Assembly: GCF_024298765.1 (NCBI RefSeq)
Contig: NZ_CP101210.1
Reading direction: 5' to 3' (one strand)
From: Escherichia coli
GTDB lineage: Bacteria > Pseudomonadota > Gammaproteobacteria > Enterobacterales > Enterobacteriaceae
DNA length: 64,000 nt
The notes below the pieces were generated by a model, which saw only the letters and a list, made by a program, of their open reading frames with translations, did no database searches and was not told the origin of the DNA. Position numbers and translations under genes: made by a program. Positions 15,876 through 45,953 of the stretch are shown here, piece after piece. The stretch's first letter is position 1. Each line of letters starts with the position of its first letter.

Positions 15876-17716
<1,841 letters not shown>

Positions 17717-37180: not shown

Positions 37181-37465
37181 ATTTTACTTCCTTCATTTTG
37201 GGCCTTTCGGCAAACAGGGCTTTAATACAGAAACTACTTAGTGTTCAGGAGAGAGACTCAAAAGAAGGGGATAATGCCTGATAATGAGAACTGCTTTAGT
37301 AAACTACTTTGTATGCTGTCTGTCTTTCAAACCGACGCAGCTATTAACGCATGATAATTGAGATTAAGCAAATTTTATTTTAGCCGTCCGGCGGTCTTAA
37401 ATATCGCTGGCTTTATTTTATTAACCCCGTATAGTGCAGCGCAGTATTTTCAGTAAGGAATTTGT

Positions 37466-37678
37466 TTGTCCCGTAAAATGACAGGAATTGTCAAAACCTT
37501 TGATCGCAAAAGCGGCAAAGGATTCATTATCCCCTCCGACGGTCGTAAAGAAGTCCAGGTCCATATTTCCGCATTCACTCCCCGCGACGCAGAAGTGCTT
37601 ATACCAGGATTACGCGTGGAATTTTGCCGCGTAAATGGCCTGCGAGGACCAACAGCGGCAAATGTATATCTCTCTTAA
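37466..37678 (+). CDS. cspH: CspH, CspA-family paralogue; TTG start
   Basis: 70-aa [56 protein letters not shown]...; divergent from cspG. Confidence 0.9.
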
Positions 37679-38118
37679 TATGAGTTGCTTGTTTAAAGCT
37701 GACTGGTTTTATTGGAATAGCTCAATAGTCAACACTACACATTATAACGCAAGTTACTTTTTCACAAAGAAACTAATCCATTTAAGCGAATATCTCTGCA
37801 CCTAATAGTTATAAATGCCACTTAACAGCCAGTTATAGTACCACATGAAACTATATTACCAACAATAGTTAATAGCTTTCTTAACAATTTTCTTATCTTT
37901 AATTTGTATTTTGCTAAGATTTATCTTATGCTCACAAGTCGTATTTCCAGAGGGGAATAGTTAACAATCTTATATTTCCCTCTGCGCGCCTTTCCCACCC
38001 GCAGTATATAGTGCTGGCGGTATGAGGAAAGGGAGATTTCACAAGGATGTTATACTCAAAGTAGATAATCCTGATCTCAAGCGTACGTATTGTCCATGCG
38101 ATGAATAAAGGAAAAGTT

Positions 38119-38424
38119 ATGAAACACAAGCTTTCTGCAATCCTTATGGCCTTCATGTTGACGACGCCAGCTGCATTTGCTGCCCCTGAAGCAGCAAACG
38201 GGACCGAGGCAACGACGGGTACTACTGGCACCACAACGACCACTACAGGTGCAACCACGACTGCTGCTACCACTGGTGGCGTGGCTGCTGGCGCTGTCGG
38301 CACGGCGACGGTTGTCGGTGTGGCAACGGCTGTTGGTGTGGCGACGTTGGCAGTTGTTGCAGCAAATGACAGTGGCGATGGCGGTTCTCATAACACCTCA
38401 ACCACCACGTCCACTACACGCTAA
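38119..38424 (+). CDS. gfcA: GfcA, threonine-rich small exported protein; first gene of the group 4 capsule (gfc) operon
   Basis: 101-aa product MKHKLSAILMAFMLTTPAAFA + Thr/Gly/Ala/Val low-complexity region; AAGGAAAAG SD upstream. Confidence 0.88.
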   Translation: MKHKLSAILMAFMLTTPAAFAAPEAANGTEATTGTTGTTTTTTGATTTAATTGGVAAGAVGTATVVGVATAVGVATLAVVAANDSGDGGSHNTSTTTSTTR

Positions 38425-38530
38425 TACTGCTTTAACGCGTCGAAATTAAAGTTAAATGATACCCGGTTGCGATATTCGTACCGGGCTTTAGAGATTTGCA
38501 TTTTTTTAATTAACCTTTCAAGGATTAAAG

Positions 38531-39175
38531 GTGCGCCCTCTTATTTTATCGATTTTCGCACTATTTCTTGCGGGATGTACACACAGCCAGCAAAGTATGG
38601 TCGATACATTTCGCGCCAGCCTTTTCGATAATCAGGATATCACCGTAGCGGATCAGCAGATCCAGGCGTTGCCTTATTCCACGATGTATTTACGCCTTAA
38701 TGAAGGGCAACGAATCTTTGTGGTACTGGGATATATAGAACAAGAACAAAGCAAATGGTTATCCCAGGATAACGCCATGCTGGTTACCCACAATGGACGT
38801 CTTTTAAAGACCGTCAAACTTAATAATAATCTGCTGGAAGTGACAAATTCCGGGCAGGACCCTCTGCGTAACGCGCTGGCAATAAAAGACGGCAGCCGTT
38901 GGACGCGCGATATTCTCTGGAGTGAAGACAACCATTTTCGCTCTGCGACCCTGAGTTCCACTTTTTCCTTTGCTGGATTAGAGACGCTGAATATTGCGGG
39001 TCGCGATGTGCTGTGTAATGTCTGGCAGGAAGAGGTGACTTCCACGCTGCCAGAAAAACAGTGGCAAAACACATTCTGGGTCGATTCGGCTACTGGCCAG
39101 GTTCGTCAAAGTCGGCAAATGTTAGGCGCAGGGGTTATTCCCGTAGAAATGACGTTTCTTAAACCCGCACCATGA
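38531..39175 (+). CDS. gfcB: GfcB, lipoprotein (YmcC family); GTG start
   Basis: 214-aa ORF MRPLILSIFALFLAGCTHSQ (lipobox LAGC). Confidence 0.9.
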   Translation: MRPLILSIFALFLAGCTHSQQSMVDTFRASLFDNQDITVADQQIQALPYSTMYLRLNEGQRIFVVLGYIEQEQSKWLSQDNAMLVTHNGRLLKTVKLNNNLLEVTNSGQDPLRNALAIKDGSRWTRDILWSEDNHFRSATLSSTFSFAGLETLNIAGRDVLCNVWQEEVTSTLPEKQWQNTFWVDSATGQVRQSRQMLGAGVIPVEMTFLKPAP

Positions 39176-39918
39176 ATAAATTACAGTCGTATTTCATTGC
39201 CAGCGTACTTTACGTAATGACACCCCATGCCTTTGCGCAAGGAACGGTGACTATTTATCTGCCTGGCGAACAACAGACACTTTCCGTTGGCCCCGTGGAA
39301 AATGTTGTCCAGTTGGTGACACAACCGCAACTGCGCGATCGCCTCTGGTGGCCTGGTGCCTTGCTGACCGACTCTGCGGCGAAAGCTAAAGCGCTTAAAG
39401 ACTACCAACATGTCATGGCACAGCTTGCTTCCTGGGAAGCAGAAGCTGACGACGATGTGGTGGCAACGATTAAATCCGTGCGCCAGCAGTTACTCAATCT
39501 CAAAATCACTGGTCGCTTACCGGTCAAACTGGACCCTGATTTTGTACGAGTGGATGAGAACAGCAATCCCCCGCTGGTCGGGGACTATACGCTCTATACC
39601 GTACAGCGTCCGGTGACTATTACTCTGCTGGGTGCGGTTTCTGGGACTGGGCAATTGCCCTGGCAGGCAGGCCGTAGCGTTACCGATTATCTGCAAGATC
39701 ACCCCCGCCTTGCAGGCGCGGACAAGAATAACGTTATGGTGATTACGCCTGAGGGTGAGACTGTCGTCGCCCCTGTTGCCCTGTGGAATAAAAGACATGT
39801 GGAACCACCGCCTGGCAGCCAGCTTTGGTTGGGCTTTTCTGCGCATGTACTGCCCGAAAAATATGCTGATTTAAATGACCAGATTGTGTCTGTTTTAACG
39901 CAACGTGTTCCTGACTGA
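39172..39918 (+). CDS. gfcC: GfcC, periplasmic capsule-assembly protein
   Basis: 248-aa [38 protein letters not shown]...; overlaps the gfcB stop. Confidence 0.92.
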
Positions 39919-42014
39919 TGAAGAAGAACTCTTATCTTTTAAGCTGCCTGGCCATTGCCGTCTCCAGTGCCTGTCATGCTGAAGTATTAACCTATCCGGA
40001 TCCGCTGGGTTCGTCGCAATCAGACTTTGGCGGCACAGGATTGTTGCAGATGCCAAATGCGCGCATCGCACCGGAAGGTGAATTCAGCGTAAACTACCGG
40101 GATAACGATCAATACCGTTTCTACTCCACCTCCGTGGCGCTGTTCCCATGGCTGGAAGGCACCATTCGTTATACGGATGTGCGCACACGCAAATATAGCC
40201 AGTGGGAAGATTTCAGCGGCGATCAGTCATACAAAGACAAATCTTTCGATTTTAAACTTCGCCTGTGGGAAGAAGGTTACTGGCTACCGCAAGTGGCATT
40301 TGGTAAACGTGATATTGCTGGTACGGGTCTGTTCGACGGTGAATATCTGGTCGCCAGCAAGCAAGCGGGCCCGTTCGATTTCACCCTCGGGATGGCCTGG
40401 GGCTACGCCGGTAATGCGGGCAATATTACCAACCCGTTTTGTCGGGTAAGCGATAAATATTGCCATCGCGCAGAGTCTCACGATGCGGGAGATATCAGCT
40501 TTAGCGATATCTTTCGTGGTCCAGCCTCTATTTTTGGCGGTATTGAGTATCAAACGCCGTGGAATCCTCTGCGTCTGAAACTCGAATACGATGGCAACAA
40601 TTACCAGAATGATTTCGCTGGCAAACTGCCTCAGGCAAGCCATTTCAACGTCGGCGCAGTCTATCGCGCTGCCAGCTGGGCAGATCTCAACCTGAGTTAT
40701 GAACGCGGTAACACGTTGATGTTTGGCTTCACGTTACGGACCAATTTCAACGATCTGCGCCCTGCCCTGCGCGATACGCCAAAACCGGCATATCAACCTG
40801 CGCCGGAATCTGAAGGATTGCAGTACACCACGGTAGCAAACCAACTTACCGCCCTGAAGTATAACGCGGGCTTTGACGCGCCAGAAATTCAGCTACGCGA
40901 TAAGACGCTGTATATGTCTGGTCAGCAATACAAATACCGTGACTCTCGCGAAGCGGTCGATCGTGCCAACCGGATTCTGGTGAATAACCTGCCGCAAGGC
41001 GTTGAGAAGATTAGCGTGACGCAAAAGCGCGAGCATATGGCGATGGTGACTACCGAAACCGACGTAGCCAGCCTGCGCAAACAACTGGCCGGTACAGCGC
41101 CTGGTCAATCAGAGCCACTGCAACAACAACGTGTTGAAGCTGAAGATCTTTCTGCCTTTGGTCGGGGCTACCGTATTCGTGAAGATCGCTTTAGCTACTC
41201 TTTCAACCCAACACTTTCACAGTCGCTGGGCGGCCCGGAAGATTTCTATATGTTCCAGTTAGGGCTGATGTCCAGCGCCCGCTACTGGTTTACCGACCAC
41301 CTGCTGCTTGATGGCGGTATTTTCACCAATATTTACAATAACTACGACAAGTTTAAGTCTTCGCTATTACCCGCGGACTCTACCCTGCCCCGCGTGCGCA
41401 CGCATATCCGTGATTACGTTCGCAATGACGTCTATCTCAACAACTTGCAAGCGAACTACTTTGCCGACTTAGGCAACGGTTTCTATGGCCAGGTGTATGG
41501 CGGTTATCTGGAAACGATGTATGCCGGTGTCGGTTCCGAGCTGCTTTATCGCCCGCTAGATGCCAGCTGGGCGCTGGGTGTGGACGTTAACTACGTGAAG
41601 CAGCGTGACTGGGACAACATGATGCGCTTCACCGATTATTCCACGCCAACAGGTTTCGTGACGGCTTACTGGAACCCGCCGACGCTCAATGGCGTACTGA
41701 TGAAACTTAGCGTTGGGCAATATCTGGCAAAAGATAAAGGTGCAACGATCGACGTCGCCAAACGCTTTGACAGCGGCGTGGCAGTAGGGGTATGGGCGGC
41801 AATCAGTAACGTATCAAAAGATGACTACGGCGAAGGCGGCTTTAGTAAAGGTTTTTATATCTCGATTCCGTTCGACTTGATGACCATTGGACCTAACCGC
41901 AACCGCGCGGTGGTTTCGTGGACACCATTGACGCGTGATGGTGGACAAATGCTGTCACGTAAATACCAGCTCTATCCAATGACGGCAGAGCGAGAAGTAC
42001 CGGTTGGACAATAA
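39918..42014 (+). CDS. gfcD: GfcD, outer-membrane beta-barrel lipoprotein (YjbH family)
   Basis: 698-aa [27 protein letters not shown]... Confidence 0.92.
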
Positions 42015-42059
42015 CCTGACGTAATTCATAACATTACATTGACTGATAAATATAAACCA

Positions 42060-43199
42060 ATGAAAAAGAACATTTTTAAGTTTTCGGTACTGACATTGGC
42101 TGTTCTGTCTTTGACAGCATGTACCCTTGTTCCTGGTCAGAATTTATCGACCAGTAACAAGGATGTCATTGAACTACCTGACAATCAGTATGACCTGGAC
42201 AAAATGGTCAATATCTATCCCGTCACGCCAGGATTGATTGATCAGCTGCGCGCCAAACCGATTATGTCGCAGGCTAATCCGGAGCTGGAGCAGCAAATCG
42301 CGAACTATGAATATCGTATCGGCATTGGGGATGTGTTGATGGTTACGGTCTGGGATCACCCGGAACTAACCACACCCGCAGGGCAATATCGTAGCGCCAG
42401 TGATACCGGCAACTGGGTTAACGCTGATGGTGCAATTTTCTACCCTTATATTGGCCGCCTGAAAGTGGCCGGGAAAACGCTTACCCAGGTACGCAACGAG
42501 ATTACAGCGCGTCTGGATTCAGTCATTGAAAGCCCGCAGGTCGATGTCAGCGTCGCGGCGTTCCGATCGCAAAAAGCGTACGTCACCGGCGAAGTCAGCA
42601 AATCGGGTCAGCAGCCGATTACCAATATTCCTCTGACCATCATGGATGCGATTAACGCCGCGGGCGGTCTGACCGCAGATGCAGACTGGCGCAACGTGGT
42701 GCTCACCCAGAATGGCGTAAAGACCAAAGTGAACCTCTATGCGCTGATGCAGCGTGGCGACTTGCGCCAGAACAAACTGCTGCACCCGGGCGATATTTTA
42801 TTTATTCCGCGCAACGATGATCTGAAAGTCTTCGTGATGGGTGAAGTGGGTAAACAGAGCACGCTGAAAATGGACCGCAGCGGTATGACCCTGGCGGAAG
42901 CGCTGGGTAACGCTGAGGGTATGAATCAGGATGTCGCTGATGCGACGGGGATTTTTGTTATTCGTGCAACGCAAAACAAGCAGAATGGCAAAATCGCCAA
43001 TATTTATCAGCTGAATGCGAAGGACGCATCGGCAATGATACTCGGAACGGAATTCCAGCTTGAACCTTACGACATTGTTTATGTCACTACCGCGCCGCTG
43101 GCTCGTTGGAACCGTGTGATTTCTCTGCTGGTACCGACGATTTCCGGGGTGCACGACCTGACAGAGACTTCACGGTGGATTCAAACATGGCCCAACTAA
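42060..43199 (+). CDS. gfcE: GfcE, Wza-like outer-membrane polysaccharide export lipoprotein
   Basis: 379-aa product [29 protein letters not shown]...; ORF track begins 7 codons upstream. Confidence 0.92.
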
Positions 43200-43633
43200 A
43201 ATTTAACTCAATCCTGGTGGTTTGTACCGGCAACATTTGCCGTTCGCCCATTGGCGAGCGCTTGCTGCGTAAACGTCTGCCAGGCGTAAAAGTCAAATCG
43301 GCAGGTGTTCATGGTCTGGTAAAACACCCTGCAGATGCGACAGCAGCAGATGTTGCCGCAAATCATGGCGTATCTCTTGAAGGACATGCCGGACGTAAGC
43401 TCACTGCTGAGATGGCACGAAATTACGATCTGATTCTGGCAATGGAGTCGGAACATATTGCTCAGGTTACCGCAATCGCTCCCGAGGTCCGCGGGAAGAC
43501 AATGCTGTTTGGGCAATGGCTGGAACAGAAAGAGATCCCGGATCCCTATCGTAAAAGTCAGGACGCATTTGAACATGTCTACGGTATGTTGGAGCGCGCC
43601 AGTCAGGAATGGGCGAAGCGCCTCAGCCGGTAA
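43187..43633 (+). CDS. etp: Etp, low-molecular-weight protein-tyrosine phosphatase
   Basis: 148-aa product [27 protein letters not shown] (CX5R P-loop); start overlaps the gfcE 3' end. Confidence 0.92.
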
Positions 43634-43652
43634 TTTGAGTTTATAAAATACG

Positions 43653-45833
43653 ATGACAACTAAAAATATGAATACGCCACCAGGCAGCACTCAGGAAAAT
43701 GAGATCGATCTGCTTCGTCTGGTCGGCGAGTTATGGGATCACCGTAAGTTTATTGTCAGCGTGACTGCGTTATTCACGCTGATCGCTGTCGCTTACTCGC
43801 TGTTAAGCACACCAATTTATCAGGCAGATACTCTGGTCCAGGTTGAGCAGAAACAGGGCAACGCCATTCTCAGCGGCCTGAGCGATATGATCCCTAACTC
43901 ATCGCCCGAGTCTGCACCGGAGATACAACTGCTGCAATCGCGCATGATTCTCGGTAAAACCATTGCTGAACTGAATCTGCGCGACATGGTTGAGCAGAAG
44001 TATTTTCCGATTGTGGGTCGCGGCTGGGCGAGATTAACCAAAGAGAAACCTGGTGAGCTGGCGATCAGCTGGATGCATATTCCACAACTGAATGGTCAGG
44101 ATCAGCAACTGACACTCACGGTTGGGGAAAACGGCCACTATACGCTGGAAGGTGAAGAGTTCACCGTCAATGGTATGGTCGGTCAGCGTCTGGAAAAAGA
44201 TGGCGTTGCGCTGACTATCGCGGACATTAAGGCCAAACCAGGAACACAGTTTGTCCTGAGCCAGCGTACCGAACTGGAAGCGATTAACGCGTTGCAGGAA
44301 ACCTTTACCGTTAGCGAACGCAGTAAAGAAAGCGGGATGCTGGAACTTACCATGACCGGTGATGATCCCCAGTTGATTACCCGTATTCTGAACAGCATCG
44401 CTAACAACTATTTGCAACAGAATATCGCTCGCCAGGCGGCGCAGGATTCACAAAGCCTTGAATTCTTACAGCGCCAGTTGCCTGAAGTGCGCAGCGAGCT
44501 GGACCAGGCGGAAGAAAAACTCAACGTTTATCGCCAGCAGCGCGATTCGGTTGACCTTAACCTGGAAGCCAAAGCCGTTCTTGAGCAGATTGTTAACGTT
44601 GATAATCAACTCAATGAGCTGACCTTCCGCGAGGCAGAGATCTCCCAGCTGTATAAGAAAGATCACCCAACTTATCGTGCGCTGCTGGAAAAACGCCAGA
44701 CGCTGGAGCAAGAACGCAAACGCCTGAATAAGCGGGTATCGGCAATGCCTTCCACCCAACAGGAAGTATTGCGTTTAAGCCGTGACGTAGAAGCGGGCCG
44801 TGCGGTATATCTGCAATTACTTAACCGCCAGCAGGAGTTGAGTATTTCGAAATCCAGTGCGATTGGTAACGTGCGGATTATCGACCCGGCAGTCACTCAG
44901 CCGCAGCCAGTGAAACCGAAAAAAGCGTTGAATGTGGTGCTTGGTTTTATTCTTGGCCTGTTTATTTCGGTGGGTGCCGTGCTGGCGCGTGCGATGTTGC
45001 GTCGTGGTGTAGAAGCACCAGAACAACTGGAAGAGCACGGCATCAGCGTTTATGCCACTATCCCGATGTCCGAGTGGCTGGATAAGCGTACCCGTCTGCG
45101 TAAGAAAAATTTATTTTCTAATCAGCAGCGCCATCGTACTAAAAATATCCCCTTCCTGGCGGTGGATAACCCGGCAGATTCTGCTGTGGAAGCCGTACGT
45201 GCGCTACGAACCAGTCTGCACTTCGCTATGATGGAGACAGAGAATAACATTCTGATGATCACCGGTGCGACGCCAGACAGTGGTAAAACGTTCGTCAGTT
45301 CAACTCTGGCGGCGGTGATCGCCCAGTCCGATCAAAAAGTGTTATTTATTGATGCCGACTTACGTCGTGGTTATTCGCATAACCTGTTTACCGTGAGTAA
45401 TGAACATGGCTTGTCGGAATATCTGGCAGGGAAAGATGAGCTCAACAAAGTGATCCAGCATTTTGGCAAAGGAGGCTTTGATGTGATTACTCGCGGTCAG
45501 GTGCCACCTAACCCGTCTGAACTGCTGATGCGCGATCGGATGCGTCAATTACTGGAATGGGCGAACGACCATTACGATCTGGTGATTGTCGATACGCCGC
45601 CGATGCTGGCGGTGAGCGATGCTGCGGTCGTGGGGCGCTCTGTCGGCACCAGCCTGCTGGTTGCGCGTTTTGGCCTGAACACCGCCAAAGAGGTGAGCTT
45701 GTCAATGCAGCGTCTGGAACAGGCTGGCGTTAATATTAAAGGCGCAATCCTCAATGGTGTGATTAAACGCGCCAGCACCGCTTACAGTTACGGCTATAAC
45801 TATTACGGTTATAGTTACTCCGAGAAAGAGTAA
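43653..45833 (+). CDS. etk: Etk, BY-kinase (Wzc-like tyrosine autokinase)
   Basis: 726-aa ORF with Walker A GATPDSGKTF and C-terminal tyrosine cluster YSYGYNYYGYSYSEKE. Confidence 0.95.
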   Translation: MTTKNMNTPPGSTQENEIDLLRLVGELWDHRKFIVSVTALFTLIAVAYSLLSTPIYQADTLVQVEQKQGNAILSGLSDMIPNSSPESAPEIQLLQSRMILGKTIAELNLRDMVEQKYFPIVGRGWARLTKEKPGELAISWMHIPQLNGQDQQLTLTVGENGHYTLEGEEFTVNGMVGQRLEKDGVALTIADIKAKPGTQFVLSQRTELEAINALQETFTVSERSKESGMLELTMTGDDPQLITRILNSIANNYLQQNIARQAAQDSQSLEFLQRQLPEVRSELDQAEEKLNVYRQQRDSVDLNLEAKAVLEQIVNVDNQLNELTFREAEISQLYKKDHPTYRALLEKRQTLEQERKRLNKRVSAMPSTQQEVLRLSRDVEAGRAVYLQLLNRQQELSISKSSAIGNVRIIDPAVTQPQPVKPKKALNVVLGFILGLFISVGAVLARAMLRRGVEAPEQLEEHGISVYATIPMSEWLDKRTRLRKKNLFSNQQRHRTKNIPFLAVDNPADSAVEAVRALRTSLHFAMMETENNILMITGATPDSGKTFVSSTLAAVIAQSDQKVLFIDADLRRGYSHNLFTVSNEHGLSEYLAGKDELNKVIQHFGKGGFDVITRGQVPPNPSELLMRDRMRQLLEWANDHYDLVIVDTPPMLAVSDAAVVGRSVGTSLLVARFGLNTAKEVSLSMQRLEQAGVNIKGAILNGVIKRASTAYSYGYNYYGYSYSEKE

Positions 45834-45849
45834 AACTGAAGGTAAGGTG

Positions 45850-45883
45850 GCCGGATGCGGCGTGAACGCCTTTTCCGGCCTAC
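45850..45883. repeat. REP element
   Basis: GCCGGATGCGGCGTGAACGCCTTTTCCGGCCTAC between etk and appA. Confidence 0.75.
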
Positions 45884-45953
45884 GCATCAGACAGTTCTTC
45901 GTTTGTCATCAGCTTCAGAGCATTCAGGTAACTGAATGCTCTTTTTTTATGCA

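What the first reader, a model, noticed from the sequence alone, without database searches (positions are those of the whole stretch)
38119..38424. GfcA low-complexity Thr/Gly/Ala/Val region
After the signal peptide, GfcA is dominated by Thr runs (TTGTTGTTTTTTGATTTAATTGG) and Val/Ala/Gly repeats. The underlying ACN/GCN repeat DNA is prone to slippage, so length may vary between strains, and it also produces the spurious overlapping ORFs seen on both strands.
Basis: seen in the sequence. Interest (0 to 1): 0.15.

Follow-up and report, generated by a model that had tools for sequence, protein, structure and literature searches.

The report
gfcA: threonine-rich capsule gene, fixed length
The interval is the known E. 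coli capsule gene gfcA; its threonine-, glycine-, alanine- and valine-rich sequence is real, but it is written in mixed codons and has the same length in essentially every E. coli genome sampled, so it is an ordinary conserved feature and not a slippage-prone repeat.

Summary
Window 38119-38424 (+) is the complete gfcA (ymcD) gene, the first gene of the group 4 capsule operon gfcABCDE-etp-etk. The protein is 101 aa with 28 Thr. Thr, Gly, Ala and Val make up 81% of the mature 80 aa. Four long ORFs overlap it in other frames. The DNA is not a microsatellite: the longest perfect triplet repeat is 8 nt and no codon occurs more than twice in a row. About 3,600 of 5,426 complete E. coli genomes carry the gene. 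In 175 evenly spaced sample rows, every full-length copy had the same length. The two exceptions were annotated pseudogenes: a +1 frameshift and a 34-nt microhomology deletion. What does vary between strains is presence of the whole operon (absent in about 1,800 genomes) and IS1/IS5 insertions. Length changes appear only between species and only in the Thr-rich N-terminal spacer. The hydrophobic core and C-terminal Thr run are conserved across genera. In the paralogue YjbE the Thr run shows 2,950 synonymous and 0 non-synonymous pairwise differences. GfcA's function remains unknown. An AlphaFold GfcD-GfcA fusion model gave no docking signal. Already known, low interest.

The parts
38119..38424 (+). 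gfcA (ymcD) coding sequence, 101 codons plus stop
   Evidence: ORF list and translation. It is 100% identical to annotated GfcA in RefSeq E. coli genomes. AGGA at 38109-38112 lies 6 nt before the ATG.
38119..38181 (+). Predicted Sec signal peptide, residues 1-21 (MKHK n-region, hydrophobic h-region, AFA|AP cleavage site)
   Evidence: Read from the sequence. The A-x-A followed by (A/E/D)P pattern recurs at the same place in 78 homologues. This is an inference; no signal-peptide predictor was available.
38182..38268 (+). Thr/Gly/Ala-rich spacer, residues 22-50; the part that differs in length between species
   Evidence: Family alignments. Signal peptide plus spacer is 50 aa in E. coli, 45 in E. 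albertii and 34-37 in Cedecea/Enterobacter. AlphaFold gives no structure here, with pLDDT about 40.
38269..38364 (+). Gly/Ala/Val/Thr hydrophobic core, residues 51-82 (TTGGVAAGAVGTATVVGVATAVGVATLAVVAA)
   Evidence: It is exactly 32 aa in all nine GfcA-type sequences from four genera. The best 19-residue Kyte-Doolittle mean is 2.16. AlphaFold models a low-confidence helix at 59-83.
38365..38421 (+). Acidic-glycine plus Thr-rich tail, residues 83-101 (NDSGDGGSHNTSTTTSTTR)
   Evidence: It aligns with the GGGDGSNTGTTTTTTTSTQ tail of YjbE-type proteins. The YjbE Thr run shows 2,950 synonymous and 0 non-synonymous pairwise codon differences.
38239..38273 (+). Imperfect 15-nt tandem repeat, 2.3 copies, 80% match
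   Evidence: Tandem Repeats Finder. One unit (ACCAC...15 nt) is deleted in rare draft-genome alleles L014/L016. In L014 the gfc operon is already destroyed.
38293..38346 (+). Imperfect 18-nt tandem repeat, 3 copies, 77% match; encodes the hexapeptide (A/V)VG(V/T)AT three times
   Evidence: Tandem Repeats Finder and the repeat finder family D2; codon table.
37932..38303 (-). Spurious antisense ORF, 123 aa
   Evidence: Mechanical ORF list. It is not annotated in any of the RefSeq records listed.
38077..38391 (-). Spurious antisense ORF, 104 aa
   Evidence: That frame has a single stop across the CDS.
38177..38449 (+). Spurious +2-frame ORF, 90 aa
   Evidence: Frameshifted database proteins of 109 aa (P0008, P0029 and others) read into exactly this frame.
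38462..38485 (+). Stem-loop in the gfcA-gfcB spacer (CCCGGTTGCGATATTCGTACCGGG, followed by CTTT)
   Evidence: RNA fold. The stem is kept in E. albertii, Cedecea and Enterobacter, with two compensatory pairs. A different but equally placed hairpin follows yjbE in about 60 species.
38086..38094 (+). Site (CGTATTGTC) where K-12 lineages carry IS1; it is uninterrupted in this window
   Evidence: Comparison with K-12 locus L006 shows a 9-bp target duplication 25-33 nt upstream of the ATG.
38531..45833 (+). Rest of the operon: gfcB 38531-39175, gfcC 39172-39918, gfcD 39918-42014, gfcE about 42039-43199, etp to 43633, etk 43653-45833
   Evidence: ORF list. Pfam hits are YjbF for gfcB and GfcC_N/GfcC_C for gfcC. 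RefSeq annotation of collinear records.

Best explanation
The interval is the whole of gfcA, the first gene of the group 4 (O-antigen) capsule operon. It encodes a small exported protein with four parts. Residues 1-21 are a Sec signal peptide. Residues 22-50 are a Thr/Gly/Ala-rich spacer that is probably disordered. Residues 51-82 are a 32-residue Gly/Ala/Val/Thr hydrophobic core descended from an 18-nt (hexapeptide) triplication. Residues 83-101 are an acidic-glycine plus Thr-rich tail.

The low complexity is a property of the protein that selection maintains. The DNA uses mixed synonymous codons, so there is no tract long enough to slip, and the gene is 306 nt in essentially all E. coli that have it. 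The ORFs in other frames and on the other strand are by-products of the codon composition.

Between strains the locus varies by presence or absence of the whole operon and by IS1/IS5 insertions, not by repeat length. Length changes accumulate only over species-level divergence and only in the Thr-rich spacer.

The following part is inferred, not shown. GfcA and its paralogue YjbE are most likely translocated whole across the inner membrane. They probably act in the periplasm or at the outer membrane together with GfcB, GfcC and GfcD, as an abundant anchor or carrier for the capsule polymer. The transcript is probably made in excess of the downstream genes because of the conserved stem-loop after the gene.
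For: Identity and context: the sequence is 100% identical to annotated GfcA, with gfcB to etk downstream and cspH upstream.

No microsatellite: the longest perfect triplet tract is 8 nt and no codon occurs more than twice in a row. Only imperfect 15-nt and 18-nt repeats are present.

Fixed length: 58 of 58 full-length CDS rows span 306 nt, and 59 of 59 core rows span 176 nt. In the 561-nt sample, 46 rows span 561 nt, 8 carry an upstream IS1, and 4 differ in length. Of those four, two are homopolymer changes outside the CDS and two are annotated pseudogenes. Only 39 of 3,604 records fall below 95% identity over the core.

Selection on the protein: 78 of 80 related loci have the small gene. The other two have too little upstream DNA to judge. 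YjbE is 80 aa in 46 species and is invariant at amino-acid level in its hydrophobic stretch and Thr run, with 3,655 and 2,950 synonymous pairwise differences and 0 non-synonymous in each. The GfcA core is 32 aa in four genera, with 514 synonymous and 222 non-synonymous pairwise differences.

The gene is functional: an EPEC gfcA deletion is unencapsulated, and wild-type resistance to HD-5 is restored by gfcA alone on a plasmid (PMC3853201).

Exported rather than membrane-spanning: the C-terminal tail has net charge -1 and a single Arg. YjbE-type proteins have a best Kyte-Doolittle mean of only 1.0-1.4.

Against: The census is a sample of 175 rows taken at even steps, not a full enumeration. In-frame indels at a frequency up to about 2% cannot be excluded.

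Rare microhomology deletions do occur: 15 nt in L014/L016 and 34 nt in L001.

E. albertii alleles of 94, 95 and 96 aa differ by single Thr codons, so some slippage-like change happens in the sister species.

The synonymous-codon shuffle gave no sign that identical adjacent codons are avoided: 9 observed against 7.0 expected. The absence of long tracts therefore need not itself be selected.

On localisation, GfcA's own core is hydrophobic enough (Kyte-Doolittle 2.16) for a membrane helix, and AlphaFold draws a helix at 59-83, although at pLDDT about 45.

The AlphaFold fusion with GfcD left GfcA unstructured at pLDDT 22-31, so no partner is supported. GfcA does not reach any Pfam threshold.
Confidence: 0.85

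Rival explanations
1. The ACN/GCN tract behaves like a simple-sequence contingency locus: replication slippage changes its length, so GfcA length differs from strain to strain.
For: The protein is strongly low-complexity. Imperfect 15-nt and 18-nt tandem repeats exist. One 15-nt unit is deleted in rare draft genomes. E. albertii alleles differ by single Thr codons.
Against: There is no perfect repeat longer than 8 nt. No in-frame length variant appeared in 175 sampled rows from about 3,600 genomes. The 15-nt deletion allele L014 has lost gfcB, gfcC and half of gfcD through a 2.65-kb deletion. Thr runs are invariant in length across 46 species in the paralogue YjbE.
Confidence: 0.03
2. GfcA is what its RefSeq name says, a bitopic inner-membrane protein. 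After signal-peptide cleavage the Thr-rich N-terminus stays in the periplasm, residues about 59-83 span the membrane as a helix, and the tail is cytoplasmic. It would then act at the inner-membrane end of the export machinery, near Etk.
For: The best 19-residue Kyte-Doolittle mean is 2.16, above the usual 1.6 threshold, and GfcA-type and Pantoea/Erwinia-type homologues also exceed 1.8. AlphaFold alone models a helix at 59-83. GxxxG-like spacing of Gly is present in the core.
Against: A crude Hessa-scale sum for the best 19 residues is +0.98 kcal/mol, which is marginal. The tail has net charge -1 with one Arg, so there is no positive-inside signal. The YjbE paralogues, in the same operon position, have only an 8-12 residue hydrophobic stretch with a Kyte-Doolittle mean of 1.0-1.4. 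The AlphaFold helix has pLDDT below 50 and disappears in the fusion model.
Confidence: 0.3
3. One of the overlapping ORFs (antisense 123 or 104 aa, or the +2-frame 90 aa) is a real gene, and the composition reflects dual coding.
For: They are unusually long for alternative frames. Only 0.3% of 150-nt windows in the 64 kb have five open frames.
Against: ACN, GCN, GGN and GTN codons cannot create stops in most other frames, so open frames are expected. None is annotated in the RefSeq rows listed. Across GfcA-type sequences, codon differences in the gfcA frame are mostly synonymous, 514 against 222. Database proteins in the +2 frame are frameshift chimeras that start as GfcA.
Confidence: 0.02

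Closest known systems
GfcA (YmcD) of E. coli, first gene of the group 4 capsule operon (Peleg et al. 2005, as cited in PMC8592465; Larson et al. 2021, PMC8592465; Thomassin et al. 2013, PMC3853201)
   Same: It is this gene. The sequence is 98-100% identical, has the same 101 aa and has the same neighbours. The literature already notes the unusual Thr content (about 30%), the uncertain location (inner membrane or secreted) and the requirement for capsule.
   Different: Nothing differs in kind. This window has the allele with A26 and A50 where K-12 has T26 and T50, and it lacks the IS1 that sits 25 nt upstream of gfcA in K-12.
YjbE (Pfam PF11106), first gene of the yjbEFGH exopolysaccharide operon
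   Same: It holds the same position ahead of YjbF/GfcB, YjbG/GfcC and YjbH/GfcD homologues. It has the same architecture: signal peptide, Ser/Thr/Ala/Gly-rich stretch, small hydrophobic stretch, GDG motif and terminal Thr run. A stem-loop follows the gene in both operons.
   Different: GfcA scores nothing against PF11106, and BLASTP finds no alignment to YjbE. YjbE is 80 aa, lacks the roughly 29-residue Thr-rich spacer and has a much shorter hydrophobic stretch.
Simple-sequence contingency loci (phase-variable genes with perfect short tandem repeats)
   Same: The only shared feature is a repetitive-looking coding region in a surface-structure operon.
   Different: There is no perfect repeat tract and no length polymorphism among about 3,600 genomes.
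Mucin-like Ser/Thr-rich spacer regions that carry O-linked glycans
   Same: Composition and predicted disorder are similar. Larson et al. speculate that GfcA could be modified with O-antigen and exported through GfcD.
   Different: No glycosylation has been shown and no glycosyltransferase gene lies in the operon. The AlphaFold fusion with GfcD gave no interaction signal.

Membership tests
GfcA (RefSeq 'threonine-rich inner membrane protein GfcA') | Near-identity to the annotated E. coli gfcA | tested here: met
   100% identity to strain 104 and others, and 98.0% to K-12, over 306 nt.
GfcA (RefSeq 'threonine-rich inner membrane protein GfcA') | First gene of gfcABCDE-etp-etk, between cspH and gfcB | tested here: met
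   ORFs and Pfam hits for gfcB and gfcC; collinear annotated records.
GfcA (RefSeq 'threonine-rich inner membrane protein GfcA') | Required for group 4 capsule formation | not testable with these tools
   Literature only: the gfcA deletion in EPEC is unencapsulated, and its HD-5 phenotype is complemented by gfcA on a plasmid (PMC3853201).
YjbE family (Pfam PF11106) | Score at or above the Pfam gathering threshold (27.9 bits) | tested here: not met
   GfcA gives no PF11106 hit even at E<=10. The GfcA-type homologue P0032 scores 24.0 bits and YjbE itself 113.6 bits.
YjbE family (Pfam PF11106) | Small gene immediately upstream of YjbF, GfcC-family and YjbH genes | tested here: met
   Window; 78 of 80 related loci; L011 and L013.
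YjbE family (Pfam PF11106) | Architecture of signal peptide, S/T/A/G-rich stretch, hydrophobic stretch, GDG motif and terminal Thr run | tested here: met
   Multiple alignments A1 and A4. Pairwise BLASTP nevertheless finds nothing.
Simple-sequence contingency locus | Perfect tandem repeat tract of many units | tested here: not met
   The longest perfect period-3 tract is 8 nt, and the longest for any period up to 21 is under 2.7 units.
Simple-sequence contingency locus | Repeat-number polymorphism among strains | tested here: not met
   No in-frame length variant in 175 sampled rows.
Bitopic inner-membrane protein | Hydrophobic segment long and hydrophobic enough to span the membrane | tested here: inconclusive
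   Kyte-Doolittle mean 2.16 (passes); crude Hessa sum +0.98 kcal/mol (marginal); AlphaFold helix 59-83 at pLDDT below 50.
Bitopic inner-membrane protein | Positively charged cytoplasmic flank | tested here: not met
   The tail NDSGDGGSHNTSTTTSTTR has net charge -1 and one Arg. Tails of homologues have 0-2 Lys/Arg.
WGxxGxxG family (NCBIfam NF041742) | Score at or above the curated cut-off (35 bits) | tested here: not met
   17.3 bits, E 0.0053, and the match covers mostly the signal peptide.

The most novel reading that the evidence does not exclude
GfcA and YjbE are not membrane proteins. They are the abundant, disordered, Thr-rich cargo or anchor of an outer-membrane apparatus formed by GfcB/C/D (YjbF/G/H). 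A conserved stem-loop after the first gene sets a high cargo-to-machine ratio. The invariant hydrophobic stretch and terminal Thr run are the recognition or attachment element, for example the site where capsule polymer is linked. Uncoupling cargo from machine would stress the envelope, which would explain why an IS1 between yjbE and yjbF alone causes sedimentation resistance and colanic-acid overproduction, read by the authors as Rcs activation (PMC8117528).
Probability: 0.2. Interest if true: 0.55.

Novelty: already known. Interest (0 to 1): 0.1.

Why it matters
For the scan, this finding can be closed. It is a correctly identified, already described gene whose odd composition explains the extra ORFs, and it is not a hypervariable locus.

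There are two practical points. First, low-complexity coding regions should not be assumed to be slippage-prone without looking at the codons. Second, open alternative frames here generate long frameshift chimeras in public protein databases.

The biological question that remains open is what GfcA and YjbE do. The family-wide invariance of the Thr run and the conserved hairpin after the gene are small new leads for that question.

Tried and rejected
- **Synonymous-codon shuffle.** This tested whether adjacent identical codons are avoided. They are not (9 observed, 7.0 expected), so selection against repeats cannot be claimed.
- **Protein database searches with GfcA.** The word-index search gave 31 hits and the exhaustive HMMER search gave 15. 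Most were frameshift chimeras or fragments.
- **Exact-sequence look-up.** The canonical 101-aa sequence is not in that collection, so cluster sizes could not be used for a length census.
- **BLASTP of GfcA against YjbE, and P0032 against YjbE.** No alignment was found. Homology rests on architecture, synteny and a sub-threshold Pfam hit.
- **PDB sequence search.** Nothing was found.
- **AlphaFold of GfcA alone.** Mean pLDDT was 44, so it is uninformative beyond a weak helix.
- **AlphaFold of mature GfcD, a 35-aa linker and mature GfcA with 81 aligned rows.** GfcD folded at block-mean pLDDT mostly 65-94, but GfcA stayed at 22-31 with no secondary structure. The idea that GfcA adds strands to the GfcD barrel gets no support. 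The result is inconclusive because most rows were unpaired and no contact output is available.
- **GfcD homologue search to deepen that alignment.** It listed only relatives of 63% identity or more.
- **Simple promoter and terminator scan.** It found nothing.
- **Rfam.** No family covers either intergenic hairpin.
- **Listing the roughly 39 lowest-identity records.** The tool's even-step sampling cannot reach the last 60 ranks, so these were not inspected.

Full report
**What is at the coordinates.**
Window 38119-38424 on the + strand is a 306-nt ORF with an AGGA ribosome-binding motif 6 nt upstream. It encodes 101 aa: MKHKLSAILMAFMLTTPAAFA, then APEAANGTEATTGTTGTTTTTTGATTTAATTGGVAAGAVGTATVVGVATAVGVATLAVVAANDSGDGGSHNTSTTTSTTR. 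Thr is 28 of 101 residues. Thr, Gly, Ala and Val together make 81% of the 80 residues after the predicted signal peptide.

Downstream ORFs match Pfam YjbF (gfcB) and the two GfcC domains. They are followed by ORFs of the sizes of gfcD, gfcE, etp and etk. cspH lies upstream. The 561-nt stretch around the gene is 100% identical to RefSeq E. coli chromosomes in which it is annotated 'threonine-rich inner membrane protein GfcA'. The identification as GfcA is therefore correct.

**The overlapping ORFs.**
Four further ORFs of 123, 104, 90 and 44 aa overlap the gene in other frames. Within the CDS, one antisense frame has a single stop, another has two, and the + strand +2 frame has two near the start. 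Five of six frames are open over 150 nt. Only 60 of 21,284 sliding windows of the 64 kb reach that. This follows from codons of the form ACN, GCN, GGN and GTN. None of these ORFs is annotated in the RefSeq rows listed. Public proteins that contain the +2-frame peptide are chimeras that begin as GfcA and shift frame, for example the 109-aa P0008 and P0029.

**Is the DNA slippage-prone?**
It is not, by its sequence. The run of six Thr is written ACC ACA ACG ACC ACT ACA, and no codon occurs more than twice in succession. The longest perfect period-3 tract is 8 nt (CTGCTGCT). Tandem Repeats Finder sees only an imperfect 15-nt unit x2.3 and an imperfect 18-nt unit x3. The 18-nt unit encodes the hexapeptide (A/V)VG(V/T)AT three times, which looks like an old, diverged triplication. 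Shuffling synonymous codons gives as many adjacent identical codons as observed (7.0 expected, 9 observed). There is therefore no evidence that repeats are actively avoided.

**Does length vary between strains?**
- With the CDS as query, 3,607 genomes have a match. In 60 rows taken at even steps down the ranking, all 58 full-length matches span exactly 306 nt.
- With the 176-nt low-complexity core of the K-12 allele as query, 3,604 genomes match. Of these, 2,511 are at least 99% identical, 1,054 are 95-99%, and 39 are below 95%. All 59 full-length sample rows span 176 nt.
- With a 561-nt query, 46 of 58 rows span 561 nt and 8 carry an IS1 upstream. Four differ in length.

I fetched those four. 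Two differ by one base in homopolymers outside the CDS. One has an extra C in a C-run at codon 22-23 and is annotated frameshifted. One has lost 34 nt between two GTGGCGA direct repeats and is also annotated frameshifted. None of the changes is in the Thr run.

The one in-frame repeat-unit change I found is a 15-nt deletion between ACCAC repeats in a few draft genomes (P0002; L014, L016). In L014, gfcA codon 89 is joined to the middle of gfcD by a 2.65-kb deletion, so the operon is already dead. The caveat is that this is a sample of 175 rows and not a full count.

**What does vary.**
About one third of the genomes lack the whole operon. In these, the match to a cspH-to-gfcA query ends at the end of cspH, and appA is annotated under the same short match. 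K-12 lineages carry IS1 with a 9-bp duplication of CGTATTGTC (window 38086-38094), 25 nt before the ATG. Other genomes have an IS1-bounded deletion from this point into etk, an IS5 replacing most of gfcA, or an IS1 in the 3' end of gfcA.

**Variation between species.**
A scan of species-representative genomes with a GfcB/YjbF alignment returned 80 loci. Of these, 78 have a small gene of the same design immediately upstream. The other two have too little upstream DNA to judge.

GfcA-type proteins are 101 aa in E. coli and a divergent Escherichia clade, 94-96 aa in E. albertii, and 85-86 aa in Cedecea and two Enterobacter species. The 32-residue core from TTGG to VVAA has the same length in all nine GfcA-type sequences. 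Signal peptide plus spacer ranges from 34 to 50 residues.

The YjbE-type paralogues are 80 aa in 46 species of many genera. Among them the hydrophobic stretch and the run of seven Thr show 3,655 and 2,950 pairwise synonymous codon differences and no amino-acid change. These low-complexity elements are under strong purifying selection at the protein level.

**What GfcA does.**
The literature held here says that gfcA is required for the capsule. An EPEC deletion is unencapsulated, and wild-type resistance to HD-5 is restored by gfcA alone on a plasmid (PMC3853201). The same study found gfcA to be the most highly expressed of the surface-structure genes it measured. The protein is otherwise uncharacterised. 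Larson et al. suggest that it might carry O-antigen and leave through GfcD (PMC8592465; bioRxiv 10.1101/2023.12.04.565983).

My own evidence on location is indirect.
- For a membrane helix: the core's Kyte-Doolittle mean is 2.16, and AlphaFold draws a low-confidence helix at 59-83.
- Against a membrane helix: a crude Hessa-scale sum of +0.98 kcal/mol is marginal. The tail carries net charge -1 and one Arg. The YjbE paralogues have only an 8-12 residue hydrophobic stretch.

I therefore lean towards a protein that is translocated whole and works with GfcB, GfcC and GfcD. This is inference.

An AlphaFold model of mature GfcD joined by a 35-residue linker to mature GfcA folded GfcD well, with block-mean pLDDT mostly 65-94 over two barrels and a central domain. 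GfcA stayed at pLDDT 22-31 without secondary structure. That gives no support for docking and is not decisive either way.

**A side observation.**
A stem-loop follows the first gene in both operon families. After gfcA it is CCCGGTTGCGATATTCGTACCGGG (38462-38485), followed by CTTT. The stem is kept, with two compensatory pairs, in E. albertii, Cedecea and Enterobacter, where a longer T-run follows. After yjbE it is ATAACCACAC-TTCG-GTGTGGTTAT followed by TTT, in nearly all of about 60 YjbE-type loci. Rfam has no family for either. It looks like a partial terminator or a 3'-end stabiliser. Either would give more transcript of the first gene than of the rest, which fits the reported high gfcA expression.

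Kessler et al. report that an IS1 between yjbE and yjbF by itself causes sedimentation resistance and colanic-acid overproduction, which they read as Rcs activation (PMC8117528). This is compatible with envelope stress when the small protein is made without its partners.

**Family membership.**
The gene is GfcA by identity and context. It resembles YjbE in position and design, but it fails the Pfam PF11106 threshold and gives no BLASTP alignment. I call it a YjbE-like paralogue by architecture and synteny, not a PF11106 member. It fails both defining features of a simple-sequence contingency locus.

**Verdict.**
The identification and the ORF artefact explanation are correct. The slippage and length-variation hypothesis is not supported in E. 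coli. The gene and its Thr-richness are already described, so interest is low.

Noticed in passing
window 38462-38485; L007 3217-3240; loci L017-L096 between the small gene and the YjbF homologue: A stem-loop follows the first small gene in both the gfc and yjb operon families. It is GC-rich, CCCGG...CCGGG with compensatory inner pairs, after gfcA-type genes. After yjbE-type genes it is ATAACCACAC-UUCG-GUGUGGUUAU followed by U-rich sequence. No Rfam family covers it. It may be a partial terminator or a 3'-end stabiliser.
   Followed up: partly
window 38086-38094: This is the site where K-12 lineages carry IS1, with a 9-bp duplication of CGTATTGTC, 25 nt before the gfcA start. The window has no IS1, so the operon is still joined to its upstream region. 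IS1 at this site was seen in 8 of 58 full-length sampled genomes.
   Followed up: yes
window 37679-45950 (cspH end to appA end): About 1,800 of 5,426 complete E. coli genomes lack the whole gfcA-etk operon, and cspH directly abuts appA in them. Which phylogroups these are was not determined.
   Followed up: partly
L008 (NZ_CP143092.1), L009 (NZ_LR536431.1), L010 (NZ_CM143727.1), L014: The locus collects disruptive events. These are an IS1-bounded deletion from upstream of gfcA into etk, an IS5 replacing most of gfcA, an IS1 in the gfcA 3' end, and a 2.65-kb deletion joining gfcA codon 89 to mid-gfcD across an 11-nt microhomology.
   Followed up: partly
window 38177-38449 (+2 frame); proteins P0008-P0012, P0017, P0023-P0026, P0029: Public protein collections hold many proteins of about 109 aa that start as GfcA and continue in the open +2 frame (...QRLLVWRRWQLLQQMTVAMAVLITPQPPRPLH...). 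They come mostly from read-level assemblies and are probably sequencing or assembly frameshifts that the open frame lets run on.
   Followed up: partly
protein collection: The canonical 101-aa GfcA of K-12 and of this window is not present as an exact sequence in the 15-billion-protein collection. No large E. coli GfcA cluster appears in either search, although GfcD has a cluster of 9,462 members. Low-complexity filtering of that collection is a possible cause.
   Followed up: no
window 38293-38346: The hydrophobic core is a diverged triplication of an 18-nt unit encoding (A/V)VG(V/T)AT. The same hexapeptide periodicity is visible in Cedecea and Enterobacter homologues.
   Followed up: partly
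window about 17431-17700, 31645-31869, 50500-50700 and 55000-55372: Four other places in the window have four or five of six reading frames free of stops over 150-240 nt, like gfcA. They were not examined.
   Followed up: no
window 37400-37714: There is a sub-threshold Rfam match (21.9 bits against a gathering score of 78) to the cspA thermoregulator. It runs from upstream of cspH to just past its stop codon and is cut off at the 5' end of the stretch searched.
   Followed up: no
E. coli genome collection: Five of the gfcA matches lie on records classed as plasmids, and a few chromosomes have two places. These were not inspected.
   Followed up: no
window 39978-42011 (mature GfcD), model m5f74a4ed749a: With only 81 fairly similar sequences, AlphaFold still modelled GfcD as two beta-barrels separated by a mixed alpha/beta domain (mean pLDDT 71 including the disordered linker and GfcA). 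This agrees with the published two-barrel description.
   Followed up: partly
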